DNA of 64,000 bases from Folioceros fuciformis (taxonomy: Eukaryota), in contig JBNGIO010006231.1 in assembly GCA_049999805.1 (NCBI GenBank), positions 1 to 64,000 of the forward strand, read 5' to 3'. The position numbers and the translations under genes are program-made. Shown one piece after another: positions 1 through 58,112 of this stretch (its first letter is position 1; every line of letters starts with the position of its first letter). The notes beneath the pieces were generated by a model. The model had not been told where the DNA came from and made no database searches. It saw only the letters and a program-made list of their open reading frames with translations.

Positions 1-2715
1 AATGGAGGAGAATTTACCTCCCAAGCATTTTTTGATTATTGTCGGGTTGAAGGCATAGCCCAGCAATTTTCCATTGCTTATACTCCTCAGCAAAATGGTG
101 TGGCCGAGAATAAAAATCTACGTTTACACGAAATCACTGGATGCTTATTATCTCAAGCTAAATTACCTAAGATTTATTGGGCTGAAGCCATTCTTACTGC
201 CACTTATCTTCTGAATAGATTACCTACCTCTGCTGTAAAGAACATGACTCCATATGAAGCTTTATTGGTCGCAAGCCCTCGATTGAGCACCTTCGTATTT
301 TTGGCTCCCCAGCTTATGCTTTTATTCCTCCTGCACAACGCAAGAAATTTGATCCAAAAGTTGTCCAATATAAGTTTATTGGCTATACTGAAGGCATCAA
401 AGGCTATAAATTATTCGACCCCTCTAATCATAAGCTTCTATATGCTCGTAGTGTGACCTTTAATGAGTCTGCCCTTCTCTTACCTTTAGTGGGAGGATCT
501 GTCGATTTTCCTTCACTCTCGGCTACTCCCACACCATTTCCTTCTGATAACGAAGATTCCTCTATTTTTCCTGATTATGATCCCCTTAATCACTTCCCTT
601 TTCCTTCTTCTCGTGTTGTCTCTGATTTGCAGGAGGAGGAGGAGTCAATCCTCCTACGACGACCTACTACACCAGATCCTGACTNNNNNNNNNNNNNNNN
701 NNNNNNNNNNNNNNNNNNNNNNNNNNNNNNNNNNNNNNNNNNNNNNNNNNNNNNNNNNNNNNNNNNNNNNNNNNNNNNNNNNNNATCCTGACTTGGAAGA
801 ACCTCAACATCTTCCTAAACCTGGTGACTTTGATTATGAGGATTTTGATCCTGCGTATGAAAATCATGTCGATCATGAGGATTCTCTACTAGTCCTTGAA
901 CCTATTCAGGGACCACATCCGCCATCTGTCGTAAATGACACTTCTAATGATGAGCAACCTGCACCCAGGTACAACTTACGTTCCCGTCCAAGCATCCCTG
1001 GACCTGCCAGTTGGTGAGAGCCTCCCCTTGGGTACCTTGCTATTGCCGATCACACTTCTTCGCTTGCATTACCTTACCTAGAAGCCATATACAAAGCCAC
1101 AGCTGACCCTCAAGAACCTGCTACTTTAAAACAAGCCTTTACCCTACCTGAAAAGGACTTATGGAAAGCAGCTGTAGATTCTGAATACAATTCATTAGTT
1201 AAGAACTCTACATGGGAGCTGGTCAGGCCACCTAAAGGAAGAAAAATTATTCCTAGCAAATGGGTATTCAAAATTAAGAGAAAAGGGGATGGATCAATTG
1301 AACACTACAAGGCAAGACTAGTAGCACGAGGATTCACCCAGATACCAGGTCTGGCCTATATACCATATGCCACATATGCCCCAGTAGCTAAGTTTGCTTC
1401 ATTACGTATGATTTTTGCTTTAACTGCGCAATATGATTTCCATCTCCACATGATGGATGTTAAGACAGCATATTTGTATGGCCGTCTCCAAGAGGAAATC
1501 TATATAAAACAACCCGAGGGTTATGAACTTAAAGGCAAAGAAGATTGTGTATGCAAACTTATTAAATGCATTTATGGCTTAAAACAATCAGGGAAAGAGT
1601 GGAATGTTACAATACATACTAAGCTGGTTAATAGAGGCTTTAAACGTAGTAAAGCCGATGCCAGCATGTATATATTAAAATCAGGAAATGATATTCTTTA
1701 TCTACTATTATATGTTGATGATTTATTCATGTCTTCATCATCAGCTTCTCTCCTAGCAGAAATAAAACTTTGGTTACGAGGTCATTTTGAAATGATTGAT
1801 CTCGGTGAGATGACATATGCTCTTGGAGTTAATATCATTCGTGATAGAATTAATAAAACCTTGAGTATTGTTCAAAAAAAATACATAATTGAAAGCTTGG
1901 CTAAGTTTGGACTTGAGGAAGCAAAGCCCGCTCCTACACCTTTTGCTAGCGGCATATGCCTTACCTCCTCTATGAGCCCAACCACTGATGCGGAAAAACA
2001 AGAGATGTCAGCAGTACCATATAGACATGCTGTTGGCACTTTAATATATTTGAGTAATTTTACAAGACCAGACATATCATTCGAAGTAAGCACCTGCTCA
2101 CAGTTTTTAGAAAATCCTGGACGTGAATACTGGATGTCAGTAAAACGCATCTTCAGGTACCTCAAAGGCACAATGAATACAGGACTCATGTATAGGCATA
2201 CAATTGGTATAGAAAAACTTACTTTGACAGCTTATGCTGATGCTGATTATGCTGGAGATTATGACACTAGGAGGTCAGTCTCGGGTTATGTACTAGTTTT
2301 AGGCAATGCACCTATTTCCTAGTCAAGTAGAAAACAACCTACCATCGCTCTCTCAAGTACTGAGTCAGAATATAGAGTCCTGACATCAACAGCCAAAGAA
2401 ATTGTTTGGAGTAGGTTAGTTTTGAATGAATTAGATCATCCGCAAAATGAACCAACTACATTATTTAGTGATAGTCAAGGAGCCATAGCTTTAGCACATA
2501 ATCCTGTTTTTCATTCTAGGACTAAACACATAGCAGTGGAATATCATTACATTAGAGAAGTTTTGGAAGACAAAACAATAGATATTAAGTATATTTCAAC
2601 TCATGAAAATCCAGCTGACATATTAACCAAATCCCTTGGACGGGATTTACATAACAAACACATGAGAAGTTTGGGCATTTTAGATATTAAATCCAAACCA
2701 CCTTTATTACCATAG
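1..2715 (+). mobile_element. Degenerate Ty1/copia pol (integrase-RT-RNase H), 5'-truncated by the window edge
   Basis: Integrase motifs TPQQNGVAE and WAEAILTATYLLNRLP; RT motifs MDVKTAYLYG, IYGLKQS and LYVDD; RNase H motifs SRTKHI and ADILTK; copia domain order. Frameshifts and stops (e.g. TAG at 2320-2322). No 3' LTR seen. Confidence 0.95.
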
Positions 2716-2945
2716 TAAGTACATTATTGTCAAGGGCTGATATAATTTAACTTCTTTATCCTAGCCCTATATTTGGTCCTTAAATCTCAATGTCTTCTTC
2801 TACCCTTAACTCTTCATCATAGTAGATGTCATTTTCTAGATGTAAGGACCAAATAGAACCTGTTTCCAAAAGAAACTTTTAGAATACATGTAGGGGTAGA
2901 AGGATGAATGGCCTCATAGAAGATATGTAGAATCAAGAGCATAAA

Positions 2946-3163
2946 TGCTCTGATACCATGATGAGAATCATTTCATGCTCTAAGATATGCTTACATTACT
3001 TATGTTGCTTGGAGCAAATGTTTTTATAGTACAAACGGTTATTGGTTGTTATAACTAATATAACCGAAATAACAAATAACTACTTGTGTAACCTCCTAGG
3101 AAACTACTTCTAGCCCTAGAATTAAATACTTATTTAATTCTAGGTATTTATATTGCCCTAACG
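2946..3163 (-). mobile_element. tRNA-Met primer-binding site plus adjacent probable LTR remnant of a further LTR element
   Basis: Minus strand reads CA-TGGTATCAGAGCA at 2960-2946, the canonical tRNAiMet PBS directly after an LTR-like CA end. The outer LTR boundary is approximate. Confidence 0.6.
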
Positions 3164-3239
3164 AATAGTGCAAAAAAAGTATCTATTTTATCAAGATGAA
3201 GGCATTTAAATGTGTTGGGTTGAGATGAAAATTGGGAAG

Positions 3240-6200
3240 TGGTTGGCCAGGCTATTATGGTGTAGGTTGGACAGGTAGTGCTGTTCCCATAGGGATGTCA
3301 TCGTCGCCATCTACAGGATCTGCAGGAAGATTAGATCCTCCCACTTCAATTGAGCCTTGCATGTCCTCTAGGAAGGTGATGTCCCGTGAGTGAGTCACTT
3401 TGTGAGTTCATGGGTACATGATTTTGAATCCCTTGACGCCAATGGTGAAGCCAATGAAGATGTGTTTACGTGGGTGATCCTGTAGCTTGGTTCTTGTGGC
3501 TTTAGGTATGTGTGCGAACACGGGAGAGCCAAAGACCTTGAGGTTTGAGAGGTTAGGCTTGTGCCCCGTCCATACTTCATAAGGAGTCTCTTGTGGCAAG
3601 GCAATTGTGACGAATTTGTTGAAGGGGTAAACTGAAGAGGCCATGGCTTCTAGCTAGTATGTCTTTGGCAAGTTGGCATGGATCAACATGGCCAATCCAT
3701 ACTCTTGCATTGTCCTCTTCATCCTTTTGGATACCCCGTTTTGTTGAAATATGTGGGGTGTACTTACTTGCTTATTGATGCCGCATGATTTGCAGAAAAT
3801 CACTTGAAGCATATTCTCCTCCTCCATCTAAACGGATTGTGAGGAGCTTCTCTCTTGTTCGCTTCTTAGCCCACACTATGTGTTCTTGGAAACAAGTAAG
3901 AACTTGAGATTTGTGCTTCAATAAGTAGAGGACAATGAATCTGCTCATATTGTCGATAACCAATATGAAATACAGCTATTTGTGAACAAATCTCTGGAAC
4001 TGTCCTCAGATGTCGGAGTGTACTAACTCCAAGTGTTTTATGGATCTGATGGTTGATTTAGGAAAGGGGGCACGATGACTCTTCCCGAGTGAGCATGCCC
4101 GGAGATGCCAAACTCCTCCACATTAGTGTGATGCCTTTGGCTGCACCTATTGAGAGCATTTGCTCCATTCTTTGTATCCCCATATGGCCAAGTCTTGCCT
4201 CTCATAAGTAGGATTGATTGTGCTTGGTTGGAGTAGATAGTGATCGAGCAGAGTTGTGACTTCTATCCATGTTGAGGTGATACTGGTTATCATTCGTGAG
4301 ATCTGCAGTGGCAATAAGCTCTCCTTGAGGCGTCTCCACGACGCAATGGCCTTGTCCGAAGCATACATAGCAGCTAGACTCACTAATTTTTTGGACTGAA
4401 AATAGATTTTTAGTTAGTTCTAGAACATGCAGTACGTTTGAAATTTGAAGTGTGCTTCAAATTTCAAACAGTTTGAGCTTGAAGTCTACTAATCCTTGTC
4501 CTTCTATTGCGTGCCTTGTGTTGTCACCCAGGTTGACGAAGTGAGGGGGCTTAAAAGGTGTAAAGTCTTTGAAGTACTTTCAGTGTGGGGTCATATGCTG
4601 TGACGCCCCTAAGTCTATGTACCAGGAATGTTGTCCTTGAGCAATTAGGCATGAACTGACTAGATCTGATGGTGGTGAGTCTGGCTTAGTGTTTTGTAGG
4701 CATAGGAATGTCTTTCACTGTCTCTTCTTGGTTAAACCTAATTGACCTAATGCTTCTTCTCTATCTCTCCTGTGATTATTGTCTGCCATACGTCTTCGGC
4801 ACTCTTCATATGTGTGCCCTAGAATCTTGTAGTAGCCGAATATCTTTTTCCAACTTGGGTTGAAGTTGTCGTGTCCTCTAGGGTGAAGCCTCTACCCCTA
4901 TGTGTTTGCTGTCGTTTGCAGGTGAACCTGTTGCGGCCTCAAGCTCTTCCTCTATCTATGAAGTAGGCAGCACTAGAGGATTCCCCGCCAAAGAAGGAAG
5001 CGAATACCTTCCTTCTTACTTCTTCTGTTAGCATAGCACTATTTACTTTATTTACTATAAGTGACATTGCACCTTGTAGGGATTGGACGATGAAGATCCA
5101 TGATTTGGGTAGAGTTGATGGTAATATTGTTGCTGTTAGATCTTCAGTCATAGTGAAGCCACAAGACTGGAACTTGGCGGTTCAGCTCCTAAACAACATG
5201 GTATGTACATCTACCTAGTCAATTTTTGACATTCTTAAAGTGAAATAATTCTTGATAGTGTAAACTGTGTGCATGATATCGGTGGGAGCATATATGTCAT
5301 GGAGTTGTTGCCAAGCTTTCGCGGCTATCTTGATGCCTTCCAGCTGTTGCACATTTTCAGATCTTATGCCTTGCATGATAACATTATTGGCTTGCTGGTT
5401 TTTATCATCCCACTCTTCCTTTTGAGTGTCTGTGGCATTAGCACCTAATGGGCGTGGTGTAGGAATTGATGGAGAGCCATTTCCTACCACAAATTCATGA
5501 AGTTTCCTCTCCTTGAGGATATTGGTGATTTTGAATTTCCATTGGGGAAATTTTGTTGCTGCCCATGCATCTAATCTATCTTCCTTGGATAGTGAGATGT
5601 TGGAGGTCATTTTGCGCTGTTGTTTGTGTCTAATTTGTGTGTCTGTGGGCACGTGCTAGCATGCGTGGCTACTTTGCTGTTAGCTTATATCTTGAAGATA
5701 CAGTTTCTAAAGGAGGCAAATTGTCTCCAAGTGCATGGTGAGTAGAATCCTGACTATTTGAGGTTTGTTTCTGACTTTGGCATTTTGAAGTTGGCTAATC
5801 TTGTGAATTACTGACGTTTCCAGTGCTTCAATTTCAGGTTATGGAGGATTCTTGAACAAGTTGTTCCTTCTGGATATGGTATCTAAATGGGCATGGATTC
5901 TTTCCGAAGCTAGTTATTGCAGTAGGGGATGACCACATCAAAGGATGTGGTGTATTGATTAATCATTGTAGGTGAATAGGAAGGAGACCTGAATATATGA
6001 CCAATCGCATTCATTAGGCTCTACATATCAGTAGTTCATGTCCTACGAGGAGCAATATGCATGAGACTCTAGATCAGGTATAGACTAGAAGGTCTTCGTT
6101 TGCTTCCTTTGAGTTACTACTCTTTAATGGAATCTTGCGAAATTCGAGGTTATGTGCAACTCGGTGTGCTCTTCTAAGCATGTGCTCTCTCTTCGAGAAC

Positions 6201-6580
6201 TGGCATGATGGTTGGGTTTATTTCTCATAATTAAGAGGACGGGGAAGCATTTATGTTTTGCTCTGATGCCATGACATAGTATAGTGTGTCACTGAATAGG
6301 TAGTTGTGCAAGAGAGAATCATAGATTGATGAATGAGAAGACCATGTTAAGTTGATCGAGTGTTGTACAAGAGAGAATTATAGATTGATCGTCGCGAGAA
6401 TCATATATTGATGGTATGAGAAGTAGATGTTAAGTTCGTATGGTGAAGCGGTGCCTTGGGCTAAGCGCTTCATGACGGTTCGTAAAAATGGCTGAAACGT
6501 GCGCTGAATAATGCTAGATCCAGTACTGTTTCTACAGTGATGAGGTAAGCGTTAGTTTTAAAGCTGTTAGAGCTCTCACA
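3240..6580 (-). mobile_element. Degenerate Ty1/copia element (LTR/PBS, gag, protease, integrase; RT missing)
   Basis: PBS-like TGGCATCAGAGC at 6271-6260; gag KFPQWKFKITNILKERKL (5215-5652); protease WYIDLGASQHMT (~4590-4625); integrase LELVHSD, IRLDGGGEY and TPYEVWTGHKPNLSNLKVFG; many stops and frameshifts. Confidence 0.9.
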
Positions 6581-6843
6581 TGCCTTTCACCCTCCTGTGT
6601 CTTATAAAGTATTTTCTCTCGATAAAGGCTAGATCCATATATTTCTACCATGAGGTGCGCAGAATTGCTTTTTCAAGGAACGCAGGCCTGTTTCCGTAGG
6701 GAACGCAGATCTGCTGCCGTAAGGAACAGAGGCCTCCCTTCTGTTTCTTGGAACAATCCTTGCGCTTGCCTAACAACAGGCGACTAGAGTTGTCTAAGTG
6801 ATTCCTCATCAACGGCAATCTAGGTTGTACAGGCTAAGGTCTC

Positions 6844-8847
6844 ATGCATCCATTTCCACTTCGTCGGCTGGTAGTGGTGGTTGAAAGCACGGCTGCTTTG
6901 AGATATGAATGGTCGCGCCTCAATGACTATGTCGAGAAAATTGTTCGAGGTTTCTATGGTCAGGACGTGAATGGAACTAGAATGTCAGTTACCTCAGCAG
7001 ACACTGGTTTGGTTTTGTTCAACAGCCATAGTGCTTATAATGAAAGGTTGGTAAAGCTCCAGGGCTGGACCAGCAGTATGGATGTCTTCCTTCACTGGCT
7101 GCGTAACATCTGGTTCAGTGGGCGCAGGTTTGGAGAAGTGGCTATGGCCGAGGGGCTTGCAGAGGCTCTTCTCATGTGTCTTCAAGGGCAAAATGTCGCA
7201 AACGTGACTGGATCGGACCAGAAGCACGTCCTCCTGATAGCTACATCTGCTCCCTGCAGCACACCAACGCCGGTTGTCACCCCGCCTATTAATTTAGATG
7301 GCAACTCCAATGCCTCGGAGCCAGGGATTCGCCCACGGCGCCTTGCACATTCACAGGATGTGGCCAAGTGGTTCCCTCAATGCCACGTTTCCTTGTCTGT
7401 CATCTGCCCGAGAAGACATCCCCAGTTGCGCTCCATTTTCGACCTGGCCCAGCGGAATGCAAGCTCAGCTGACCCAGAAGCGTTCATTCCCAAACAGTAT
7501 CCCCACGACACAGTTCTTCTATCCGATGGTTTCTGGGAGGCCCGTGCTGCTTTGGGCATGAATGGGAACATCTCCTCTGTGCCTCGAGGCTGGAAAGCTG
7601 AACGTCATGACATTCCGATTACGTCAGGGCAAACGTCAAGTGTGACTTCACGACGCATGGCCAGCGTTCCACGGCGCCAAGCTAGAGATCACATTTCCTC
7701 AAGACCGCCACCTGTATGGGTTAAAAAGACTACGGCGACGACTGGAACAGGTGAACCTCAACTCAGCACTACTTCCTCTTCAACCAAAGCAGTACACAAT
7801 GACTTGAGCTCTCACTCAAACCTTATGGTCCACTATCAGGCGGACGATAATGATTCCCAGAGTCGGGATGGAAAGTTCGATAGAGCTACAACTTCCCTAC
7901 CGCCTGAGGGAACTGGGGAAGACTTTTTCCCTGGACTTCAAATGGGACAGGCGTTTATGCGAATGGGACTTGACGCAAGTCAGGGTCAAGTGGGCCTGAA
8001 TACTCTGAAGGTAGACATGCTGGGACAGGGATGTTTTGCAACTGAGTTGCATCCTTATGCAATGGAGCCATCAAACTTGATTATGACCCGGGCTGAGCTT
8101 GCTGCTGTCAGTGCGGCGAACAGTCAGCTGCCTGCAGTACTTAGCCAGCTGAGGGGTCTGTATACTGCACCGTTTGGACAACAAAATCCATGGTTCGCAT
8201 GGTATTTGACATCAGGAAGTAATGTTCTGGACAGAGCGGCTACGCAAATTGGAGGCGTCGGTGCAAACAGATTCTCAGGAATTATGGGTACTCTCTTTAA
8301 TATACCAGAGCCTACTCAACGCTTGAAACCATCTTCCGTCACACGAGCTTCACACCAGAGTCTTCAACAACACACATTCGGCCCCCCTCAGCGTACAATT
8401 GGCCTGCCCTCGGTGAATCCACAGCGACAGGTTCCACAGTCTTCTCAGGCACCTGGAGGAAAGTATGCAAGGTTGTGGGACGGTGTGTTAGCAGCTGACC
8501 GTCACGGACAGACTGTGGTTATTTGCAAGTTAGAGTGTTATAGACCGAGTTTGTCACCAGAAACACTTGCTGCAGATTGGCCTTCCACATTTCGCATAAT
8601 GAGGGTCATTGATCAGGACCTCATGAGCAGCGTAGAGTTGGAGGGAAAAGAAGAAGTTTTGGCTTTCAGGGCACTGAATCACCATCCATTCCTCTTTCAG
8701 CTGGCAGAAAAGAAATTGCGTGCTGTGATTGAACTGCCAAGCCAGACAATACTGCTGGCAAGTATGCCTAACGAAGGAAGAATGGTCGGTGTGCTATTTC
8801 CAAGCCACAATGTCATCTTAATGCCAACCAATGCAAATCCTCAGTAG
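6844..8847 (+). CDS. MED25: Mediator subunit 25 (PFT1)-like paralog, intronless, diverged (667 aa)
   Basis: vWF-A motifs LVVVVESTAAL and AMAEGLAEAL; ACID-domain YARLWDG...ETLAADWP...LAEKKLRAVIELPSQT; colinear with the 12744-14909 copy; ORF uninterrupted. Confidence 0.85.
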   Translation: MHPFPLRRLVVVVESTAALRYEWSRLNDYVEKIVRGFYGQDVNGTRMSVTSADTGLVLFNSHSAYNERLVKLQGWTSSMDVFLHWLRNIWFSGRRFGEVAMAEGLAEALLMCLQGQNVANVTGSDQKHVLLIATSAPCSTPTPVVTPPINLDGNSNASEPGIRPRRLAHSQDVAKWFPQCHVSLSVICPRRHPQLRSIFDLAQRNASSADPEAFIPKQYPHDTVLLSDGFWEARAALGMNGNISSVPRGWKAERHDIPITSGQTSSVTSRRMASVPRRQARDHISSRPPPVWVKKTTATTGTGEPQLSTTSSSTKAVHNDLSSHSNLMVHYQADDNDSQSRDGKFDRATTSLPPEGTGEDFFPGLQMGQAFMRMGLDASQGQVGLNTLKVDMLGQGCFATELHPYAMEPSNLIMTRAELAAVSAANSQLPAVLSQLRGLYTAPFGQQNPWFAWYLTSGSNVLDRAATQIGGVGANRFSGIMGTLFNIPEPTQRLKPSSVTRASHQSLQQHTFGPPQRTIGLPSVNPQRQVPQSSQAPGGKYARLWDGVLAADRHGQTVVICKLECYRPSLSPETLAADWPSTFRIMRVIDQDLMSSVELEGKEEVLAFRALNHHPFLFQLAEKKLRAVIELPSQTILLASMPNEGRMVGVLFPSHNVILMPTNANPQ

Positions 8848-9019
8848 CGCCCTCAGGAACATACGCCGTTTCAGTTTAAACTAATGTTATCGGCATTTCA
8901 GTGCTGAAACCGTTAGTAGCTATTGGAAGCTGGTAGAAACATGATTCAAGGACAAGATCTGGGAAGAGGTTCACAACATTTTTCTGTCATGCACGGGACG
9001 AGAGCGGAAGGCAACTTGC

Positions 9020-9283
9020 AAAAAATGTCTTGGTGAGGACAAAGCTGGCCAGGTAGTGTATCCACAGAACGCTTTGTCCTGGGAAACCTGTTAGATTATG
9101 ACATGATACTGAGAACCTCATTGTAGTAGTCATGTATTGAGGTCATCACAAGAACAGAGTCGCTGTGTCAAAGGCAAACCTTCCCTCCCAGTATCCTTGT
9201 GTTATCTTCAACATCCCTCGGTACATGTCTGCCTGCAAGTAAGGGACTCCAATTACATCAACTGCTCGCAACTTCGTACGCTC
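9020..9283 (-). pseudogene. Duplicated, decayed Haspin 3' exons (a last-exon remnant also lies at ~6712-6762)
   Basis: Homologous to 15044-15309. The ADMYRGMLKITQGYWEGR exon is retained, the next exon has a 1-nt insertion (acaaagcgtt vs acaaacgtt), and its donor changed GT>GC. Confidence 0.85.
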
Positions 9284-9399
9284 ATTTGCGAAAGCTATAC
9301 ACCTGCCGATCCCAACAACCAGTCCCTTCCTTGCTGGGACACTGCCATCCTGAATCCACGATTTCAACTTCAGAGCCTCAGAAGACTAAGTGCCGGTGA

Positions 9400-9960
9400 C
9401 CTGGGCCCAATCACCTGGAAAATCGTCTTTATGTCCTTTATACGACACCCTCCTGTGCGGGGAAGCCTTCCTCCGATGTAGTGAACCGAGTACACCCGCC
9501 ACAAACTGATCCCAGACCTTCCAGGCCCGGACTCAATTTGCATGTCTGACTACTCCGGGTATCTTCCAGCACAGCGAGAAACGTACGCCTTCTCCACCTG
9601 CGTTCCCCGTGAGCGGAAAGGTTGAGAATCTTCAACTTCGCAGAAATAGCAGGGGACTAAGGGGCTGCCAGCAACATAGCAATGAGCAGACCGAGCACCC
9701 TGCACCTTGTCCCGTCCCTTACCATGGACTTGACAGTGGCAAACACATGCTCAGAGTACATCCCGGAAGACTTGTTTAACACAATAAATCCCTCATCCTC
9801 ATAGACAATTTGCTGCCTGCTGACTCCCTCGTTGCACTGCATGGCGGCTTCTGCCACAATCGCCCGCTCCACCTCCACCGATCTAGCATATTCGGAGCTG
9901 AATGGGGTAAGGGGAACCGGAAGGTCCAGAGCTTCAACAGAATCCTGCTGAAGCAAGGGA
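9400..9960 (-). pseudogene. RluA-family RNA pseudouridine synthase fragment
   Basis: PVPLTP...IVYEDEGFIVLNKSSGMYSE, then VEKAYVSRCAGRYPE*...SGPGRSGISLWRVY...IKDIKTIFQV. In-frame stop; the catalytic HRLD motif and the C-terminus are not found. Confidence 0.75.
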
Positions 9961-11790
9961 GATGCATCAAGCTACGCATTGGATGAACACTGCGGAGCAA
10001 CACGTGGAGGAACGGCGAGGGCTGCCAAGCTAGTGCCACAACCGTTCGTTGAGGCCACAACCCATGCTATGAAGCTGCCTTTCCCACGACAAAGCCAGCG
10101 CGACCTTGGCTGGACAACAAACCCTAAAAATATTTCAATTTATATTTTGGATATTTATTTAACAGTGTGATAATTTAACTTATAAAAATGAAGATCTTAA
10201 GGGATCAGAACCAAGCGTCTTTTGCCTACTAATGTTTCAATCCTCTGCACACCCCTACGGAATATCGATATGGATACACCACTGTTTGTATATGGTCTCA
10301 TATTTTGAAGCTAATGATAGTATGGGTAGTGGGTGGCTATCAAGGCGTCCCAATCTAGCCATCACTCGACATACACGACTTTTTTTTTCTTTCTCACTAG
10401 TTGCACAACAGCATGGGAAAGCTAAGGACGACCAGCAAAGAAGATGTGGAGAAGTGGAGGCCCCCAATGGAGCTGGACGAGCAAAGGGTTAGAATGAAGT
10501 TGGACAAGCCAAGGGTTAGGACGGGAAAGGCAGTGGAGGCTGCCAATGGGGTTGGACGAGCAAAGGGGTAGGAAGCTCATTTTGACTGCTTGTATGTGTG
10601 TGAGAGAAAACATTTTGTTAGGTTGAAGGTTGTGATTGTGCTGTAGGCAGTTGTTTCCTTGCACTAGAACTTATGGTCATGTGACCTTGGAAATAAATGA
10701 ATTATGTGAATTGAATACCTTTGGTTTACGTAATCGCATCCAAATCCCACACAAACTGGGGTTCAATTGATCAAATCTAGAGAGTTTGTGGGGGCTTTTA
10801 GGTACCCCATAACACCCAAAGAGGGGTGTAGTAATTGCAAGGGAACGTTGCATGTGCAGAAGGTGGGGATTGAAGATTTGCAAAATCAGTGGGCTATGGC
10901 TAGGCTTCATATTAGCAATAACATTGCAATGTAGTTCAGATCCTCCAGCATGGAATGTGAGATGAGAATGTAGGCAATTGCATGAGCTTCTTGTAGACTT
11001 AAGAGGAAAGCTAGCATGGTTGTTTGTGTAGTATGGTGTGAGTTGTAGCCACTGCAACACCCAAATCCCTGTCTAGCTTGATCAAAAAGAGTGCAATAGA
11101 GGAGCTTGATGGTGGGCAAATTGAACGGCTCTTTTAATAGATTCACTTCTCCTCAAGGAACCTATGGAATCTCGAGGAGCACCTAACCAAGCACATGTGC
11201 TATATAAGCCAATCAGCCTTGCGTACCCATTCCTAGATTGTGGCCCCAAGTATGAAATTGAAGAGAACGCATCCTTTCCTGCCTTTCCTGCAAGTTACAT
11301 GTGTGCCCTTGCTTCGCCCATCACTCGAAATTCTCAGAAAAAGGGTGAGAAATTGGAAACCAACACCTAACGGCCTCCCATTACCCTAAATCCTCGGAGA
11401 AGGGTATGCAATTGCAAATGAACACTTGAAGGCCTCTCATGCCCCATTCCTCCACCACACTTGAAGTATTACTAGCTAAGGTAGATACCAAGGATCCTCA
11501 TGCACACCCTCACCCTAAACCATTTATCCATACATGGATAAGAAGAATACCCGAGCACAAGATGTAGCGTGAAGGGTGGAACAATGGCAATATGAAGTTC
11601 AAGGGTTTGAAGTCGAAGGCATGATGTGGGTAGATGAAGCTTGTGCTGGAGAAGATAGCAAGGTATTGATTAGAAAATATTATAAACTAAGAAGAAACAA
11701 AAGTTATGGACCAAAGAAGATTCTTCAATGTTCTTAATTGGTCCATTGAAGTGCGAATGCCATAAGAAAAAAAGTGGTATTATATGGAAG

Positions 11791-12090
11791 GTCATAATGT
11801 GACGTGGAGCCCTAAAATCCATAGAATATTGACGTAAAATATAACATACGGTTGAAAAAGAAAACCCTAATTGTGGATTGTATGTGCCTATTGATATTCC
11901 ATACGGTCCACTAAAGAGGCAATGACACAAGAAAAACAGTCCGTACTATATGCAAGCTCATAATGTGACATGGAGCCCTAAAATCCATATGTACGCAAAA
12001 GATGCCGAAGAATATTCACGTAAAAATATACAGTTGAAAAAAGAAAAGGCTAATCGTAGACAGTATGTTCGTATTGGTATTCCACATACC
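11791..12090. repeat. Imperfect direct repeat, ~165 nt period, two copies
   Basis: tcataatgtgac(g/a)tggagccctaaaatccata...gttgaaaaa...tatt(g)atattcca occurs at ~11792 and ~11958. Confidence 0.7.
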
Positions 12091-12421
12091 TGCCTAACTT
12101 TTTGAAAGGATTATGCTTTTGTGACTCTCATTCATTATATATAATAAAATAATTTACGAAGATTGTTCTTGGAAGCTTTAAAAATATATATAATTGAAAA
12201 CTAGTTTTAAATACTATTTGAAAAATATAAGGCCAAGACAAAGAAATTTTGAAATTTTTTTCCACCTCCAATGACGGAGACCGGGGTTGGTGAAAAATGA
12301 CACCCAATACGTCAAATGTTGAATGTGACGTTCCGTCATCAAGGTGTCAACTCCACACGCCACAAGAAGGACTCAGGGAGTCTCACTGAAGGAAGATAAT
12401 TCGCACAAACAGGCGCAGACA

Positions 12422-12430
12422 AAACCCTAA
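12422..12430 (+). promoter_or_regulatory. Telo-box (AAACCCTAA), candidate MED25 promoter element
   Basis: Exact motif ~315 nt upstream of the MED25 ATG; function is inferred only. Confidence 0.35.
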
Positions 12431-12530
12431 GGCTCAACATCAATCGTACAGATAGCTACGACGCGCACTGAACTTCGCCAATTACTTTGGATGACACCAG
12501 TGTCGAAGTATATGACATTGCGTTGTTTCT

Positions 12531-15500
12531 CTATGACTCCCACATATCCTGGAAAAAGTCATCCGATACTGCTGCTCTGGCGGAATCATAGAGCAGGACT
12601 CGACTGCGGAAGGAACGTAGGTCTCGCTTCTGTTTCGTGGAAGAATTCTGCATGAGCCACAACAGGTAATTAGACGTGTCCAATTGAGTCCTCATCGACG
12701 GCAATCTAGGTTGCACGGGCTAAATTGTCGTGCATCTTGCGCGATGTCACAACAGATGACATTTCAACATCGTCAGCTGGTAGTGGTGGTTGAAAGCACA
12801 GCTGCTTTGGGATATCACTGGTCTCATCTACTCAGGGAGTATGTCGAGAAAATTATTCGAGCTTTCTATGGTCAGGATGTCAATGGGACCAAATTGTCAG
12901 TTACCTCAGGAGAAACTGGCTTGGTTTTGTTCAACAGCCATCATGCTAATCATGGAGGGTTGGTACAGCACGTGGGCTGGACCAGCATTATGGATGTCTT
13001 CCTTCACTGGCTCCATAACATCCAATTCACTGGGGGAGGGTTTGGGGAAGTGGCCATGGCCGAGGGGCTAGCAGAGGCTCTCGTCATGTGCATTCCAGGG
13101 CAAAGTGTGGCAAACGTAACTGGATCAGACAGGCAGAAGCATGTCCTCCTGATAGCTACATCTGCTCCCTGCAGCATACCCAAGCCTGTTGTCACCCCGC
13201 CTATTAGTTTCAATAGCGACTCTAATGCCTCGGAAGCAGAGACACGCCAATGGCGCCTTGCAGATTCAGAGGATGTGGCCAAGTGGTTCCCTCAATGCTA
13301 CGTCTCCTTGTCGGTCATCTGTCCAAGAAGACTTCCCCAGTTGCGCTCGGTTTACAACCTGGCTAAGCGGAACTCAAGGTCAACTGACCCAGAAGTGCTT
13401 ATTCCCAAGCAGTATCCCTACCACACAGTTCTTCTTTCGGATGGTTTCTGGGAGGCCCGTGCTGTTTTGGGCATCAATGGGAACAACTCCTCTGTGCCTC
13501 CAGTCTCAAAAGCTGAACTTCATGACATTCCGATCACGTCAGGGCAAACGGCAACTGGGATTCAAGGACATTCGGTCAGCGTTCCAACTGGGAAAGCCAA
13601 GATTGAGATTTCCTCAGGACTGCCACCTGTCTTGGTTAATAATGCTAAGGTGACCACTGGAACAGGTGTACCTGGGATCAGCACTGGTATGGCCCCTTCC
13701 ACCAATGCAGTACAGGATGCCTTGAACCCTGTCTCAAATGTTGTGGTGAAGCAGGAAGATGTGACGAATACCTCTCTCGTCTCCAACACAAACGTGCTGG
13801 CAACCGGTTATCATGCAGGCACTCAGGTATCACGAGGAGCCAACAATGGTACTTTGCAGGTTCCGGATGGAAGCTTTCAGGGAGTTGCAAATATCCTATC
13901 GTCTCAGGGAACTGGGGTAAACTCTTTCCCTGGAGTTACAATGGGACAGGCGTCTATGGGAATTGGACCTAATGCACTCGGAGGTCAAGTGGGCGTGAGT
14001 AGTCTGCACGTAGACATGGCGGGACAGGGAAATGTTGCAAATGGGTTGCACGCTAAAGTAATGCAGCCATCAAACTTAATAATGAGCCGGGCTGAGGTTG
14101 CTTCTGTCAGTATTCCGAACAGTCAGCTGGCTGGAGGATTGGGCCGTGTAGGGGGTCTAGGTACTGCACCTATGGGCCAACCCAATTCTCGGAGTGCAGG
14201 GGGTCTGACATCAGGAAGTAATCTTCCGAACAGAGCAGCAACTCAAGTTGGAGGAGTTGGTGCAAACAGATTGCCAGGAGTTACTGGTACTCTCTCTAAC
14301 ATAGCACAGCCTACTCAAAGCTTGCAACCATCTTCCATTACACAAACTTCACAGCAGACTCTTCAACAACAGACATTCCAAGCTCAGCATACACTTGGCC
14401 AGTCCCCTGCAAATCCACAGCAACAGGTTCCACAGTCTACTCAGGCATCTGGAGGCAGGTATGCAAAGTTGTGGGAGGGCCTATTAGCAGGTAACCGTCA
14501 AGGAAAGACTGTGGCTATTTGCAAGTTAGAGTGTTTTAGACCGAGTCCGTCACCAGACACACTTGCTGCAGACTGGCCTCCCACAATTCACATAATGAGG
14601 CTCATTGATCAGGAACTCATGAACAGTAAAGAGTTTCAGGGAAAGGCAGAGGGTTTGGTTTTCAGGCCGCTGACTCCACATCCATTTCTCCAGCAGCTGG
14701 CGGAAAAGAAATTGTGTGCTGTGATTCAACTGCCAAGCCAGACATTACTGCTGGCAAGTACTTCTATGGAAAGAAGAATGATGGGTATGTTATTTCCAGG
14801 CGACATGGTTGTCTTCAAGCCAAACAATGCAAATCCTCAGCAGCCAGAAGTTATCAACCCAGCTGCCTCGGCAGCCGCAGGAACGTATGTGGCATCAAGT
14901 ATAAACTAATGTTATTGGTATCCCAGTATTTAAAACGTTAGTGGCTATTGGGAGCTGGTAGAAAATAATTTAAGGACAAGATCTGGGAAGCGGTTCCCAA
15001 CGTTTTTCTGCCATGGACGGGACGAGAGCGGAGGGCAACTTACAAAAGATTTCTTGTTCAGGACAATGCTGGCCAGGTAGTGGATCCACAGAACGTTTGT
15101 CTTGGAAAACCTGTTACATTTTTCCATGATACTCAGAACCTCATTGTAGTAGGCAGGTGTTGAGGGGTCACAAGAACAGAGTTACTGTGTCAAATGCAAA
15201 CCTTCCCTCCCAGTGTCCTTGTGTTATCTTCAACATCCCTCGGTACGTGTCTGCCTGCATGCAATTAAGGCACTCTAATTAAAGCAACTGCTCGCAACTC
15301 CGTACGCTCTTTTGAGAATGCTAGGGACCTGAATATCTCTTGGCGGTCCGTCGAAAATTGCAGGATCGGCGCCTAGATTGCAAAACAGAACTTGTCTTCC
15401 TGCGAGAAACGTCAACCCGATAAGAACGGGAGTTTCTTGTGGAGTGGCAGGAATCTGAAGAAATTTAGGCACCTGTATTCACTCGTGAAAGGGTGAAGTC

Positions 15501-18500
15501 AATTATTGATAACGACAATCCACACGTCCTAGTCCGTAGCGCATTTCCATCCAAACAATAGTCCTTTGCATGCTCTTCAGTTCTAGCTAGCACAAGGTTC
15601 CCCCTGCACGAACAGTGTGGCAACAAGTTGTACTCCCTTGGTCTGTTCAGTGAAGTATTGACAGCCCTGGACATGCCACTCCCAGGATACCAGCAAGCTT
15701 CAGGCGATAAAAACTGAAGGATTAGATGTATTACCAATGGAGATCCCGATGCTCAAATTCGCAAGCAGTTTCTGCAATAGCAAGCGAGAGAACAACCTGC
15801 GCCGAGGCTTAAAAGTTACAGAGCTGTGGACATGGCCCGCATCAGACTGGAAAAAGTGCGCAGTGAGCAATTAGCCCTTACCTGAACAAGCAGGCTTTTA
15901 ACTTCAGCGGAGTCTGCGAGAACGAAGCTTTCCAAATCCTTTCCCCCATCTGCCAGGATGAAAATGACATATCGCTAATTCCCGCCAAAAGTTAGAAATG
16001 CACTAGATGTACATCATCCGGAACAGTCATTAGAGACCCATCAAAGAAAAAGTCGCCATTGATAGTCAGATGAGCGAGGCTAACCTGTTGTTCTGGAAAA
16101 GACATCGGATGATCATTCTCTGATTTGTGTTCAGCATCCCACTCCTCCCATGCCCGGATGAGGTCTTCGTCATACTTTCCTCGACAATATTTGATCCTGA
16201 GAGCAGTAGTGGTGATCATTGCTTGCTATTATGATACACACCTCACCAGAAAGAGACAGCACCCACAGTTTTGCTTTCTCAGCCAAATATACGATTACTA
16301 CCCCTTAGTGGTGATGAAGTTCGTACAAAAGTTTGAACTGTTTGGCAGCTGCAACTTGTTCAAAGTGCTGGAGAGCAGCACCTCGTCATAGAGTTCAGCA
16401 GAAGTCTGCAAAAATGTGGTGAGCAACGTCTGCATTTGGCAAATTTCACCTTACAGGAATGGGCCAAAGCACTGAACAGATTGTGTGTACTTTTTGTAAT
16501 TCCCCGTTAACGCGAAAGTCTCCATCAACAGGAACAATCTTCAAAACAGTGTCCCCTTCTTTGAAAGCTTCTCCATAAGTTCCTTCTCCAATTTTGGTGA
16601 TCTTGCTCATATCACTACCACAGCAACAAAAATGCACAGCTGTTACTGATAGCGAGAGCCATCGGCCAGACAACTAGGTTTCACTCCCCATGACAGTGAG
16701 GTCGTTTGGGACATTACCAGTAAGCAGAGATGGCCTCCCTCTGGGTGGTTAGACGGGTTTGTCCACTTTCTCTGAGGAGCCCGTAGAAAACCGAAACTCT
16801 ATCATCATCCACGAGTGATATATTGCCATTCCCTTTGACTGTAATGTTCTCATTTGCTACGTCTTCCTCATCCTCCTCCAAAATTGCAGAGTACGGTTCA
16901 GCTCTGTCATGAAGTGAGAGGCGGTCCAGCGCCAAAACTCCGAGGCCTGATGCAGGAGTTCTTGCTCTTGCCACTTGATGTAGATGTTGAGATGGGCTTG
17001 TCGAAAATACTTTTCGAGTGGCAAGCTCCTGAAATGTTGACTCTTCAATTTCAGCAGTAAGCCCGAAAGGTGTTCTGGAATGGCTGAAGGATAACCCTTT
17101 CCGACCGACCAACTCCCCGCCTTCTAAGTCTTGAACAGAGGGGGGCCCCTGTTTGTCACTGGAATGATCGTGTGTAAGGTAAGCCGTCTTACAAACGTTA
17201 AGCAGGGTGGTCTGCCCCTGGACCGGAGATCCTGTTGGAGCCCTCAGACTAGAACATTTGTGTGAGCCGTTGTGCTCGCTCTCTTGCATGAGGGCCCCAC
17301 GATATTGGGCAAGGCACAACTCTGCTGTTGGAAACAAATCTGGTAGTTCAGGAGACGGTGCAGACAAACTAGCCGTCAATTTGTGGCCAATTCTTGACCC
17401 CTTGGATCGACAAGTGCTTGACCCTGTAACATCACCGTAAAGAGGTTCGACCAGAGAACAAGCAGCAGTGCCACAAGGCTCGGCTGCAGAAATTCTTTGT
17501 TCCTCCTCCGAATCAGTCACCCGGATGGACCGAGGGAACAGCTCCACAAGTGTTTGCACCTCTTTCTGACATGCTGTAAAGTCTTGAACATCACCCCAAT
17601 GTCTTCCATGAGGAGTTGTGAGCGCAGCAGCTAACATATGTCTGGTCCCTGAAAGAACATAGCTTGCGGGCGTTTGGTGAGAGATCTCCCCTAATGCATC
17701 TTCTGGAACTGCTTCAAGAGGAGCATGCCGAGCATGGAACGGCAACACGATGTCCACAGCTGCTGCATCCGAATTTTCATCTTTCCAGCCTGTGACGTGA
17801 ATGGGAGAGGGAACTGCCTCTTCCAGCTCGAAGGCATCGATCTCAGCGAACATGGCCCGCTGCTCTTGGACAAATTCAATGGGCGCCTCTGCCTTTTTCC
17901 TTCTTTGCATGTGCTGGATCACAACAGCCACCGACACCGCAACTAATTGCCAGTTCACACACAAACTACTGATAGGAATGGCAGAACAGTCTCTGATTTG
18001 CACGTACCGCTCCTCCGCAAGGGACGTCAGCTTTACCTCTCGCATTTCCTCGGTTTTCTGGGCATCCATCGTCCAGGGGATGCACAATGCTGCTCCTCCT
18101 TCGCCTGTCGCAAGCAGGAGATGCGAATCACAGCCAATCCAGCAACACTAGGAATCGCCACTTGCAGGGACGAGCAGGAAATCGGATAAGCGTGGAAGAA
18201 CTCGCCTGAGTGACAGGGACCGGTCCATCCAGCTCTGCCGATTTTGCTCCACCTTGCCAGCACCTCTCTGTGACCTGCCAGTGGTGTGCAAAGAATGGCT
18301 GATTCACAACTGAGAGGAGAATGCCTACAAGCCCCCAGCAGACCGCGATTTCGCATTTTCTGGCAAATGAGTATCAGACTGTACTTCTTGTGTTTGTGTC
18401 TGGAAACAGCTGGGAGCAATTCGCGCACATCATTCTTCAGTGTATCTTGTAAGAGCCGCCGTGGCCCAGCGTCCTTGTGGCGACGTGAATAGACCGCTGT

Positions 18501-20460: not shown

Positions 20461-21624
20461 CTAGTAAACTTCAACGTGCCATTGCTTTCTCTTTTTCAAA
20501 AGAGACAGTTTTTCTTCCCAGCTCTCTCCTCTTGCCTCCGCTACTCTCTGCAGGGTGTCCTGGATCCCAGGCATCATGCCTTTCAAGCCACAAAAGTAGA
20601 TGTGAGCTCCCTTGTCCAGCAGCTGAAACAACTCCTCGCTGTACTCTTCAATCTTGTCCTGAACATACATCTTCCCACCTCTGGCGTTGCTCTGCTCACG
20701 GCTGAGCGCAACGTCGTACCGGAACTTATCAGGAAACTTAGACTTGTAGCTCTTAAACTCATCATCATACAGGAGGCTGTCGCTGTTGGCCACTCCTAGA
20801 AACAACCAAGCCAAGCCCCCGAACTTGTAGGAGGGCACATCCTCCATGAACATCCGTCTCAAGTATCCTCTATACGGCGCAATTCCCGTTCCGGTAGCCA
20901 CCATAATATGCGTCGCTTTCGGATCCTCCTCCGGTAACAACATAATCTTCCCGCACGGCCCGGAGATAAGCACCTTGTCCCCGGGCTTGCTATCGCAGAG
21001 GTAATTGCTGCACACGCCTTTCTTACTCGGATCCTCCTTCCCCGTCTCCGGGTCGTAATACACGGCTCTCCGCACGCACAAGCTGGCCGTGTTGCCATCA
21101 AACTCATCGCCATACCTGGTGGACGCGATAGAGTAGAGGCGCACTGCATGCGGAGTCCCGGGCTTCTTCGGATTCTCCCCGGGCGGGATGACGCCGTAGC
21201 TCTGCCCCTCCCAATACGGCACATTCCCGCCGTGGTCGATGACAATGTGGCAGGTCTCCCCGGGCGCCCTAGCCCCGACAATCCGCTCCACCGACTTGAT
21301 CGTCGCCTCAAACGGTTGCTTCGGCTTGAAGAGATTCACAGGCGGCTCTTTGGCTCCCTCTAGATCTGGCGCACGCAGGGCCACCTTGCTCGCCCGCACC
21401 TCCAGCAGCCTGCTTCTCCAGCTGGTGCTCTCCGCCGGCCCGGCAGGCCTCCTCTTCACCTGCAACCCGAGCGCATCGAAGGAAGCCACCTGCACGCTGG
21501 GACACGCTACCATCCTGGCCTCCAGGCCCCGATCTCGGCTCCGCCAAAAACAGTAAATTGAAGGCTGCCCGGCCTGCGCCTGTGACTGCGCCTGAGCCGC
21601 CATTGTTGCCGAGTAGCCTGCCAT
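20461..21624 (-). CDS. RFNR: Ferredoxin-NADP+ reductase, root-type isoform, plastid-targeted
   Basis: [61 protein letters not shown], terminal WHVEVY; continuous ORF; first ATG 21624 (alternative 21603). Confidence 0.96.
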
Positions 21625-28525: not shown

Positions 28526-29568
28526 ATGGCGAGCATTCGTGAGTTTCGCGGGGCGCAGACAGACTGGGGCGTGGAGACATGGAAGGCAGTGGTTCGCGTG
28601 CGGGAGAAGGTGCGAGGAAGACGAAAGCTGCCTCGGATTGTACCGGATACTCGATTCTCTGACGCGTGGACTGACTGACGATGTAGTTTGTCCCTTCCCT
28701 TCCAGGTCCCGCTGGTGCAATGCATCACCAACTACGTGAGCATGGACATCATGGCCAACACGCTGCTAGCTGCAGGCGCCAGTCCAGCCATGGTGCACGC
28801 GCTGGAGGAGATCCAGGAGTTTACGGCGCTCACCAGCGCGCTATGCATTAACATTGGCACTCTGAGCCCGGACTGGATCTTCTCCATGAAGGTGGCGGCC
28901 ACGCGCGCCAACGAGATGCGCAAGCCCTGGGTGCTGGATCCTGTTGGCGTCGGGGCCACACAGTTTCGCACTGAGAAGTGCGTGGAGCTTATCCGCCTCA
29001 AGCCCACAGTCATCCGCGGCAACGCCTCGGAGATCATGGCGCTAGTCGGGTCGTCCATCAGTCCGTCCACGGTAACTTCTCCTCCACATGTCCATCGCCA
29101 TCCGCTTTCCGATTCGGCCCAGTCCGGTCACGGCTCACGCTTGTGTGCTTCGCTCTCCCCCTTCCACAGGGCGTGGACAGCACTCGCGGATCCCTAGACG
29201 CCATGGACGCGGCCAAGGAGCTGGCCAGGCTCTCGCAGTCCATCGTGGCCGTGACGGGGGCCATGGATCTGGTGACGGACGGGAAGCGGGTGCTGGGAGT
29301 AAGCAACGGCGTGCAGCTGATGCAGCGCATCACGGCCACGGGGTGCGCGGTCACGTCCCTCATCGCGGCATTTGTGGCGGTGCATCCCGGGCAGGCTCTA
29401 GAGGCGGTGGCATTCGCCCTGGCGTTTTTCGGGCTGGCCGGGGAGGCCGGCAACGAAAAGGCATCGGGGCCTGCTTCCCTGCGTATGCACATGCTAGACG
29501 CCTTGCATACTTTGGATGAGGTGACCGTCACTTCTCGGGTCAAGATTGCTCAAATGAGCGCATTTTGA
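28526..29568 (+). CDS. THIM: Hydroxyethylthiazole kinase (thiamine salvage), 3 exons
   Basis: PLVQCITNYVSMDIMANTLLAAGASPAM, INIGTL, WVLDPVG, IRGNASEI, GVDST, ITATGC; GT-AG introns at ~28610-28705 and ~29072-29169. Confidence 0.95.
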
Positions 29569-34881: not shown

Positions 34882-35113
34882 AATATCATTCTCCAAAATT
34901 ACTTATTGCTCCCAAAATATCATGATGTGGAGGCATACCTAGGAATATCATTCTCCAAAATTACTTATTGCTCCCAAAATATCATGATGTGGAAAATAAA
35001 AGGCTTATTGCTCCCAAAATATCATGATGTGGAACAACAAAAGGCATACCTAGGAATATCATTCTCCAAAATTACTTATTGCTCCCAAAATATCATGATG
35101 TGGAATAATAAAA
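34882..35113. repeat. Compound tandem repeat at the 3' end of the CRE-like fragment
   Basis: cttattgctcccaaaatatcatgatgtgga occurs 4 times, three of them preceded by aatatcattctccaaaatta. Confidence 0.85.
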
Positions 35114-35159
35114 GGCGTACCTACAAACAGTGTCGAACAAGCCACTTGACCTGCACTTG

Positions 35160-35764
35160 TTGCTCTCCGAAAACCGTGTTAGCTAATGCTCTTTGCAAAG
35201 CAATGGATACACGTTGTCAAAACAAGCCACCACAAAGGAAAGGGGAGAACACAATTCCTATGACTTTGATAAACCTTGTCGCACTCGTTGATAAACCTTG
35301 AAATGTCCTTGCCCATAGCCCATGAGTCTCAAGAGCAAGGGGGATGAAAGTCTGCCTGTCTTGCAGGGGAGAATTCTTATGGACTTTGGTGCCTGCACAA
35401 CCCTCCGCCGCCCAACAAGGGGGGTTACTGATGAATGCTCGTAGATCGAATCCCTAGTGGGCTCCGTAACAACCACAATAACGACACAAACATATTTCCC
35501 ACTAGTGAAAAGAAGGTTAGCTCTAAGTGAAACCCCATTCCGCAAAGTACATGATCGCTCCCTACACGGATGAAACTCACACTCCCTACCCAATGAAAAC
35601 ATGACATCTCGAACTACATCATGGGTGACACCACGATGCCTTCCAATGGGACAACATGCAAGATGGGGCCATGTATCGACAATGGGAACCCCACAACTGC
35701 ATGTAAAGAGAGAAAAAGCCCAGGGGTGGAGCAAACCTAAGTGAAATCTTATCACAGTGGCCAC
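35160..35764 (-). mobile_element. Second CRE-like non-LTR fragment (Zn knuckle, RLE, C-terminus)
   Basis: IRFHLG..CSCG..D..PHLACC..G..RGVTHDVVRD..SLRANL..VVVTEP and QRVSIALQRALAN; homologous to 22150-22770. Confidence 0.7.
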
Positions 35765-35913
35765 CCTACACCATTCATATTATTTTGTTTTATACTATAC
35801 CTTTTATACTGCANNNNNNNNNNNNNNNNNNNNNNNNNNNNNNNNNNNNNNNNNNNNNNNNNNNNNNNNNNNNNNNNNNNNNNNNNNNNNNNNNNNNNNN
35901 NNNNNNNNNNNNN

Positions 35914-36425
35914 TGCACCACTCATACTGGTGTTTTATATTGCTCCTTTAGTATATCGTCACATCTCCTCTAGCATACCATCACATCGTCATTTCCCCCT
36001 CCTCTCCTAAGCCCATGCACCACTCATACTGGTGTTTTATATTGCTTCTTTAGTATATCGTCACATCTCCTCTAGCATACCATCACATCTCCTCTAGCAT
36101 ACCATCACATCGTCATTTCCCCCTCCTCCCCTAAGCCCATGCACCACTCATACTGGTGTCATCTCCTTTAGCATACCATCACATCGTCGTTTCCCCCTCC
36201 TCTCCTAAGCCCATGCACCACTCATACTGGTGTTTTATATTGCTCCTTTAGTATATCGTCACATCTCCTCTAGCATACCATCACATCTCCTCTAACATAC
36301 CATCACATCTCCTTTAGCATACCATCACATTGTCATTTCCCCCTCCTCTCTTAAGCCCATGCTCCTCTAGCATACCATCACATCGGTCATTTCCCCCTCC
36401 CCTTCTCTTGTGCCCATGCTTCTCT
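35914..36425. repeat. Satellite-like array (~102-bp unit with variable 22-bp subrepeat), flanked by assembly gaps
   Basis: Units begin tgcaccactcatactggtg at 35914, 36016, 36140 and 36214; the subrepeat tcacatctcctctagcatacca varies in copy number. Confidence 0.9.

Positions 36426-55887: not shown

Positions 55888-58112
<2,225 letters not shown>

What the first reader, a model, noticed from the sequence alone, without database searches (positions are those of the whole stretch)
6675..9283. The nested unit was duplicated: host Haspin exons decayed while guest MED25 stayed open
Seen in sequence: ~6712-9283 is colinear with ~12600-15309 and includes Haspin exon remnants on both sides (a frameshift, a GT>GC donor, and a locally triplicated aggaacgcag motif at 6675-6740). 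The 2-kb MED25 ORF remains stop-free despite many substitutions and net in-frame deletions. Changes include GGG>GRR in the vWF motif and several in the ACID domain. Inference: a second Mediator-subunit paralog escaped its host gene and may be under selection with altered activator specificity.
Basis: partly seen in the sequence, partly recalled or inferred. Interest (0 to 1): 0.7.

Follow-up and report, generated by a model that had tools for sequence, protein, structure and literature searches.

The report
Fast-evolving duplicate of nested MED25 gene
In this hornwort-like plant the only MED25 genes found (a transcription co-activator subunit) lack introns; the original sits inside an intron of a kinase gene, and one tandem copy has kept its reading frame while its protein changes unusually fast, a possible regulator in the making.

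Summary
Intronless MED25-A (12744-14909) lies antisense in the last predicted Haspin intron. Copy B (6844-8847) is an 80%-identical duplicate with dead Haspin remnants on both sides. No spliced MED25 was found in the assembly.

B's frame was kept by selection. All 6 indels versus A are in frame, against 1 of 26 in dead neighbouring DNA, and neutral simulation leaves it stop-free in under 1% of runs. But its protein is barely constrained: dN/dS is 0.9 in the Mediator-docking vWA domain and 2.4 in the linker (p=0.0005; three sequences only). The changes private to B are mostly in vWA (40, versus 11 in C), not in ACID; most ACID changes are shared with C. One RNA data set covers parts of B and also shows an opposite-strand transcript just downstream.

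Best reading: a translated, diverging paralogue that is losing Mediator docking. Altered activator specificity is unproven. No binding or protein data exist.

The parts
6844..8847 (+). MED25-B, intronless ORF of 667 aa (vWA, linker, ACID); the fast-evolving copy
6675..6735 (+). 23-bp repeat (2.7 copies) grown out of the dead Haspin last exon; a related 23-bp array of 6.3 copies is on C4708
6718..6843 (-). Remnant of the Haspin last exon and intron end, upstream of B
8877..9305 (-). Remnant of two Haspin exons and their introns; +1 frameshift at ~9072, GT>GC donor at 9019-9018
7751..7839 (+). 89-nt GT..AG joint inside B seen in one RNA contig; the spliced form would stop after 305 aa (vWA plus a short tail)
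9302..10116 (-). Broken fragment of an RluA-type pseudouridine synthase gene (intact copy on C3602); transcribed, with a 125-nt intron at 9598-9722 whose donor is absent from the intact gene
10117..12400 (.). Dispersed repeat (81 matches listed in the genome, self included) where the 5' part of the pseudouridine synthase fragment would lie
12744..14909 (+). MED25-A, intronless ORF of 721 aa, the conserved copy; RNA contigs cover 12383-15245 without a joint
12531..18069 (-). Intact Haspin kinase gene, 11-exon model; last intron 15043..12648 holds MED25-A; the true start probably lies further upstream (joint 18100-18202)
1408..6652 (.). Copia-type retrotransposon remnants and a short dispersed repeat (6537-6652) that replace B's ancestral upstream region

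Best explanation
History. An intronless MED25 (most likely an old retrocopy whose spliced parent was lost; inferred) sits antisense in Haspin's last intron, next to a pseudouridine synthase gene. Local segmental duplications with breakpoints inside the two multi-exon neighbours copied this block at least three times. Each copy carried broken pieces of Haspin and of the synthase but a complete MED25, because an intronless gene fits whole inside the block (layout shown; order of events and contig adjacency inferred). The neighbours survive once each; MED25 survives as A, B and C, with D dead (shown). Function. B is a translated paralogue: selection removed stops and frameshifts (shown statistically) but no longer protects the vWA sequence, while the linker changes at or above the neutral rate. 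Most likely B is losing its docking on Mediator (vWA binds MED16 in Arabidopsis) while keeping a folded ACID and gaining a new linker surface. It would then act as a weakened or competing adaptor rather than a normal subunit (inferred, untested).
For: Four MED25 loci were found, none spliced, in five own-genome searches. Indels: 6 of 6 between A and B are multiples of three (3 of 3 private to B), against 1 of 26 in Haspin and synthase remnants and pseudogene D; Fisher p=8e-6 and 0.001. D, equally diverged from A (80%), has 8 frameshift-size gaps in about 690 bp. Neutral simulation leaves the ORF stop-free with P=0.0066 at 0.075 and 0.0014 at 0.095 substitutions per site. vWA: dN/dS 0.90 on B versus 0.31 on A and 0.41 on C; 40 private replacements versus 11 in C, p=6e-5. 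Of 56 vWA sites invariant in 7 outgroups and A, 9 changed in B (including G98R, G99R, D174H) and 1 in C. Linker: dN/dS 2.39, p=0.0005; base-stratified 0-fold versus 4-fold odds ratio 4.05, p=0.0004, and versus flank 2.17, p=0.0002; single-hit codons only 2.34, p=0.024. Tree (A,(B,C)) has 100/99 support, with branch lengths B 0.23, C 0.067, A 0.053. RNA contigs match B exactly at 7837-8467 and 8735-9223, and one plus-strand GT..AG joint lies inside B. Domain roles come from PMC6609880 and PMC11748718 (passages).
Against: Only three sequences and no population data. Twelve branch-by-region tests were run. B's synonymous rate is uneven (4-fold sites: 16 of 117 in vWA, 7 of 161 in the linker), so the high linker ratio is partly a shortage of synonymous changes; against the vWA 4-fold rate (0.14) the linker replacement rate (0.165) is about neutral. 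vWA may keep some constraint: 0-fold 0.104 versus 4-fold 0.157 in B, against 0.157 versus 0.161 in dead D, and the Pfam score is still 107 bits. B and C are more alike over ACID (0.89-0.91) than upstream (0.81-0.88 in vWA), so gene conversion may have cleaned that part of B. The RNA evidence is one run of unstranded contigs whose RNA status is the tool's guess (the spliced joints support it). A minus-strand intron at 9598-9722 shows opposite-strand transcription just downstream, so the cover at B's 3' end may be antisense. The one sense joint is a single contig at depth 2 and is frameshifting. No protein or binding evidence. The joint across Haspin's last intron was not listed (7 of 10 model introns were).
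Confidence: 0.55

Rival explanations
1. B is a fully incorporated alternative Mediator subunit with changed activator specificity.
For: ACID net charge is -1 versus +4 to +6 in 9 aligned proteins; 8 of 77 other complete ACID domains are at or below -1. The loop-1 arginine R585 is kept (probably the equivalent of AtMED25 R568, PMC10796322 passages; numbering not verified), with a new acidic neighbour, N584D. Twelve derived ACID changes lie on the B+C stem. vWA is still recognisable.
Against: B-private change concentrates in vWA and hits deeply conserved sites as often as other sites (9 of 56 versus 31 of 176). ACID dN/dS on B is not different from 1 (p=0.23). The acidic gain is only p=0.04-0.06 against drift.
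Confidence: 0.2
2. B has no useful function. It is transcribed, and selection only removes nonsense and frameshift alleles because a vWA-only fragment would interfere with MED25-A; the amino acids drift.
For: dN/dS near 1 in vWA; the linker's composition shift is largely what drift gives (aromatic residues 3 to 18 of 300, drift expectation 11, p about 0.02 among 24 tests); the ancestral upstream region is replaced by repeats.
Against: The linker excess over both 4-fold sites and flank is not predicted. A promoter loss or deletion would remove the cost more simply. A spliced form that would encode just such a vWA-only product exists.
Confidence: 0.17
3. B is a pseudogene whose frame survived by chance, by recent loss of function, or by gene conversion from A or C.
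For: Tandem copies can convert one another; B-C identity rises over ACID; four-taxon informative sites conflict (12 AD|BC, 7 AC|BD, 5 AB|CD).
Against: P(no stop) is at most 0.007 at the observed rates, times P(no frameshift) of at most 0.009. B is the most diverged copy over vWA and linker, so it was not recently overwritten there. Recent death predicts dN/dS below 1 over the branch, not 1.58.
Confidence: 0.08

Closest known systems
Plant MED25/PFT1 (Arabidopsis; Marchantia P0001; Selaginella P0002)
   Same: vWA-linker-ACID order; A's ACID matches the solved chain 8y4l_A at 3.5e-45 and its vWA matches mammalian MED25 chains.
   Different: All copies here are intronless (canonical plant MED25 is multi-exon; recalled, not tested). 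All lack the glutamine-rich tail that binds COI1/JAZ in Arabidopsis. Three open tandem copies, one changing 3-4 times faster.
Orphan retrogenes (PMC4972966, green algae; passages)
   Same: Single-exon gene with no multi-exon parent found in the genome, later amplified by DNA duplication (as Volvox fsd1-3).
   Different: Here the gene lies antisense in another gene's intron and overlaps its exons with its transcript; retroposition hallmarks were not shown.
Human PTOV1 (PMC5355357; passages)
   Same: An ACID-bearing MED25 relative that does not bind Mediator and competes for a co-activator: the proposed end point for B.
   Different: PTOV1 has two ACID domains and no vWA; B still encodes a vWA and one ACID, and loss of Mediator binding is only inferred.
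Divergent MED25-like proteins in flowering plants (Capsicum P0013-P0015, Vigna P0199, Prosopis P0198, Asteraceae P0175 and P0195; two-ACID models P0147, P0153, P0155)
   Same: Lineage-specific, fast-diverged MED25-like proteins, several with a neutral or acidic ACID.
   Different: Their gene structure and function were not examined; they show that divergent MED25 paralogues are not unique to this genome.

Membership tests
MED25 subunit | N-terminal Med25 vWA domain | tested here: met
   PF11265 above cut-off for A, B and C
MED25 subunit | ACID/PTOV beta-barrel domain | tested here: met
   A matches 8y4l_A; confident only over ACID in the model of A; B and C align at 65% and 70%
MED25 subunit | Incorporation into Mediator through vWA (MED16 binding) | not testable with these tools
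   No binding test was run; B's vWA has lost 9 otherwise invariant residues
Nested (intronic) gene | Whole ORF inside an intron of an intact opposite-strand host | tested here: met
   Open 11-exon Haspin model with ORF A inside intron 15043..12648
Nested (intronic) gene | Host RNA spliced across the guest | tested here: inconclusive
   7 of 10 model introns were seen as joints; this one was not listed
Orphan retrogene | No introns in the coding region | tested here: met
   Single ORFs; RNA contigs run unjoined across A
Orphan retrogene | Multi-exon parent absent from the same genome | tested here: met
   Five searches found only A, B, C and D; the assembly has 7240 contigs and may be incomplete
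Orphan retrogene | Poly(A) remnant, target-site duplication, or a non-syntenic position relative to the ancestral locus | not tested
   No related genome was available; intron loss in place is not excluded, and the neighbouring FNR gene is also a single ORF
Pseudogene (copy B) | Stops or frameshifts in the coding region | tested here: not met
   None before the end of ACID; neutral expectation is 5-6 stops and about 5 or more frameshifts
Pseudogene (copy B) | dN/dS near 1 throughout | tested here: inconclusive
   0.90 in vWA, 2.39 in linker, 2.2 (not significant) in ACID
PTOV1-like decoy | ACID domain(s) without a vWA domain | tested here: not met
   B still encodes a vWA scoring 107 bits
PTOV1-like decoy | Competes with MED25 for activators | not testable with these tools
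   Needs binding and reporter assays

The most novel reading that the evidence does not exclude
B is a plant counterpart of PTOV1 caught in mid-evolution: a tandem MED25 duplicate whose Mediator-docking domain has become a mere in-frame leader, whose disordered linker is under positive selection and gaining aromatic residues, and which titrates activators away from the sole conserved MED25. A new antisense transcript from the dead neighbours and a vWA-only splice form would add further control.
Probability: 0.2. Interest if true: 0.75.

Novelty: new variant of a known kind. Interest (0 to 1): 0.5.

Why it matters
MED25 is the main adaptor between stress and jasmonate transcription factors and Mediator in Arabidopsis (PMC6609880 passages). 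Here a conserved copy, a moderately changed copy, a fast-changing copy and a dead copy exist side by side, giving a natural series for asking how a Mediator subunit diversifies and which vWA and ACID surfaces matter. The locus also shows a simple rule: an intronless nested gene can survive duplications that break its multi-exon neighbours. No paper with both MED25 and Haspin was found (0 hits). Searches listed nothing on MED25 duplication in hornworts (listings only; the library lacks most subscription papers).

Tried and rejected
No run on record as RNA was listed. X1 was laid anyway and shows spliced joints; X2 and X3 gave 0 contigs, which is no proof of absence. From the bin depths, 8468-8734 of B appears uncovered; 34 of 42 pieces were not shown, and holes prove nothing. 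Contig depths were not used to rank A against B. X1 shows no differences from the window and may be the same material, so it gives no polymorphism data. No close relative of B exists in the protein libraries (best hit 45% identity among 213 hits; exact sequences absent), so orthologue tests were impossible. The AlphaFold model of A was poor outside ACID (mean pLDDT 39) and was not used for vWA. No complex prediction was run. Aromatic enrichment of the linker as proof of selection was rejected as weak (p about 0.02). Multi-nucleotide changes and base composition were tested as artefacts and did not remove the linker signal; using C's other linker copy gave the same result (p=0.04 versus 0.025). 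Two first Haspin exon models were mis-framed and were replaced. PMC8075897 passages mention high gene density but nothing on intronless genes. Earlier-findings look-ups returned nothing. Contig adjacency could not be proven: there is no shared copia sequence between the window start and C4708. No supplements were read.

Full report
Setting. The window is contig C6231 of an 87-Mb plant assembly in 7240 contigs. A PPR-DYW gene at 60396-62588 ends in DRH, a variant described as found in hornworts (PMC9478123, passages). The best named hits for MED25-A are Marchantia and Selaginella, and for the FNR gene Selaginella. A hornwort is therefore likely; this is an inference at lineage level.

Observation. 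Self-BLAST confirms the colinear duplication at 80% identity. An 11-exon Haspin model is open and has GT-AG at all 10 introns; ORF A lies wholly in the 2396-nt last intron. RNA contigs of run X1 show joints for 7 of these 10 introns but not for the large one, and cover 12383-15245 without a joint. So A is unspliced, and its transcript probably overlaps Haspin's last three exons in antisense (contigs give no strand or ends). The frameshift, the GC donor, the repeat and GGG>GRR are all present.

Window 9302-10116 is a broken piece of a pseudouridine synthase gene whose intact copy is on C3602. C4708 holds a third open MED25 (C, 908 aa, with internal duplications), a longer Haspin remnant, another synthase remnant and a Haspin last-exon remnant with a related 23-bp array. 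C3602 holds the intact synthase, a last-exon remnant and a 5' MED25 pseudogene, D. The order of pieces fits a tandem array D-C-B-A broken by repeats. Support for adjacency is weak: a 25-bp match between the end of C3602 and C4708, and the shared repeat. Five searches (two A-domain proteins, the Pfam model, a degenerate pattern, the Selaginella protein) found no spliced MED25. B and C share an 81-bp and a 28-bp deletion, and the tree is (A,(B,C)) with 100/99 support.

Was B's frame kept by selection? Yes. All 6 gaps between ORFs A and B are multiples of three (3 are private to B), against 1 of 26 distinct gaps in dead Haspin, synthase and D sequence. D is a matched control: 80% identical to A, with 8 frameshift-size gaps in about 690 bp. 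B-specific substitution rates are 0.089 in the flank and 0.074 at 4-fold sites; at such rates neutral simulation expects 5-6 stops, and P(none) is 0.001-0.007. Breaks occur only where they are harmless: a stop and a shared frameshift after ACID, and a 23-bp deletion of the start codons that put an upstream ATG in frame.

What is the protein doing? A codon model with one ratio per branch gives, for vWA, linker and ACID: A 0.31, 0.77, 1.27; B 0.90, 2.39, 2.22; C 0.41, 0.89, 0.27. Only B's linker (p=0.0005) and B overall (1.58, p=0.01) lie significantly above 1 (the A branch includes the B+C stem). The linker signal survives stratifying by base, dropping multi-hit codons and swapping C's linker copy. 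It is weakened by uneven synonymous rates: 16 of 117 4-fold sites changed in vWA but 7 of 161 in the linker. I put real positive selection at about even odds. In vWA, B changed 40 residues privately against 11 in C and hit deeply conserved sites as often as others; GGG is kept in 73 of 110 other MED25-like domains that cover the motif, and none has GRR. In ACID, B has 10 private changes, 12 derived changes are shared with C, and the net charge fell to -1. Eight of 77 other complete ACID domains are as acidic, several from divergent MED25-like proteins of flowering plants. Aromatic residues in the linker rose from 3 to 18 of 300, against 11 expected from drift.

Expression. X1 laid 32 contigs (26 at 99% or more, 6 at 90-95%). 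Listed pieces match B exactly at 7837-8467 and 8735-9223, and the bins over its 5' half have cover. One contig shows an 89-nt GT..AG joint on the plus strand, which would give a 305-aa product. A CT..AC joint at 9598-9722 uses a donor absent from the intact synthase gene, so the dead remnant is transcribed on the minus strand towards B's 3' end. B's ancestral upstream DNA is replaced by repeats from about 6652, so its promoter must be new (inferred).

Mechanism. Shown: the layout, four copies, no spliced parent in this assembly, selection on B's frame, loss of vWA constraint, partial RNA cover. Inferred: retroposition, tandem order, translation, and loss of Mediator docking (vWA binds MED16 and recruits MED25 in Arabidopsis; PMC11748718 and PMC6609880, passages). 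A frame kept open through a freely drifting vWA is what is expected if selection acts on the downstream linker and ACID. This points to a weakened or competing adaptor, in the manner of human PTOV1 (PMC5355357, passages), but B fails the PTOV1 membership test because its vWA is still there. A true alternative subunit (0.2), mere nonsense avoidance (0.17) and a lucky pseudogene (0.08) remain possible.

Novelty and verdict. Nested genes, orphan retrogenes (PMC4972966, passages) and diverged MED25 paralogues are each known. Their combination at one locus was not found in print (listings only). It is a new variant of a known kind; interest 0.5, and 0.75 if the decoy reading is confirmed.

Noticed in passing
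L006 (C4708) 4258-6984, minus strand: Third open MED25 copy of 908 aa with a duplicated linker, a truncated extra ACID start and a 90-bp tandem repeat; dN/dS 0.41 in vWA and 0.27 in ACID, so it looks functional.
   Followed up: yes
window 9302-10116: The dead pseudouridine synthase fragment is transcribed and has gained its own 125-nt intron; a probable antisense non-coding RNA running towards MED25-B.
   Followed up: partly
window 20461-21624, minus strand: Root-type ferredoxin-NADP reductase encoded as a single 387-aa ORF; intron loss may be common in this genome.
   Followed up: partly
window 60396-62588: PPR-DYW protein ending in DRH, the hornwort variant of the DYW:KP candidates for U-to-C editing.
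   Followed up: partly
window 38412-38840 and 40278-40739, minus strand: Apparent tandem pair of hemerythrin-domain genes (79% match; Pfam hit for the second only).
   Followed up: no
window 18100-18202: RNA joint upstream of the first Haspin ATG used here, with non-standard ends as listed; the gene probably starts further upstream.
   Followed up: partly
L007 (C3602) 6196-6514 and L006 2230-2490: The pseudouridine synthase 5' end lies within a few hundred bases of the Haspin last exon and, on C3602, head to head with the MED25 start; a shared promoter may have activated the intronless MED25.
   Followed up: no
proteins P0147, P0153, P0155: Gene models from Paspalum, Papaver and Acacia with two ACID domains, a PTOV1-like layout in plants; they may be annotation artefacts.
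   Followed up: partly
window 34882-36419: Short direct repeats and tandem arrays next to an assembly gap.
   Followed up: no
window 28742-29568, 37133-37774, 56778-57152, 59056-59433: Ordinary genes: hydroxyethylthiazole kinase, dirigent protein, isopropylmalate dehydrogenase family, GINS Sld5.
   Followed up: no
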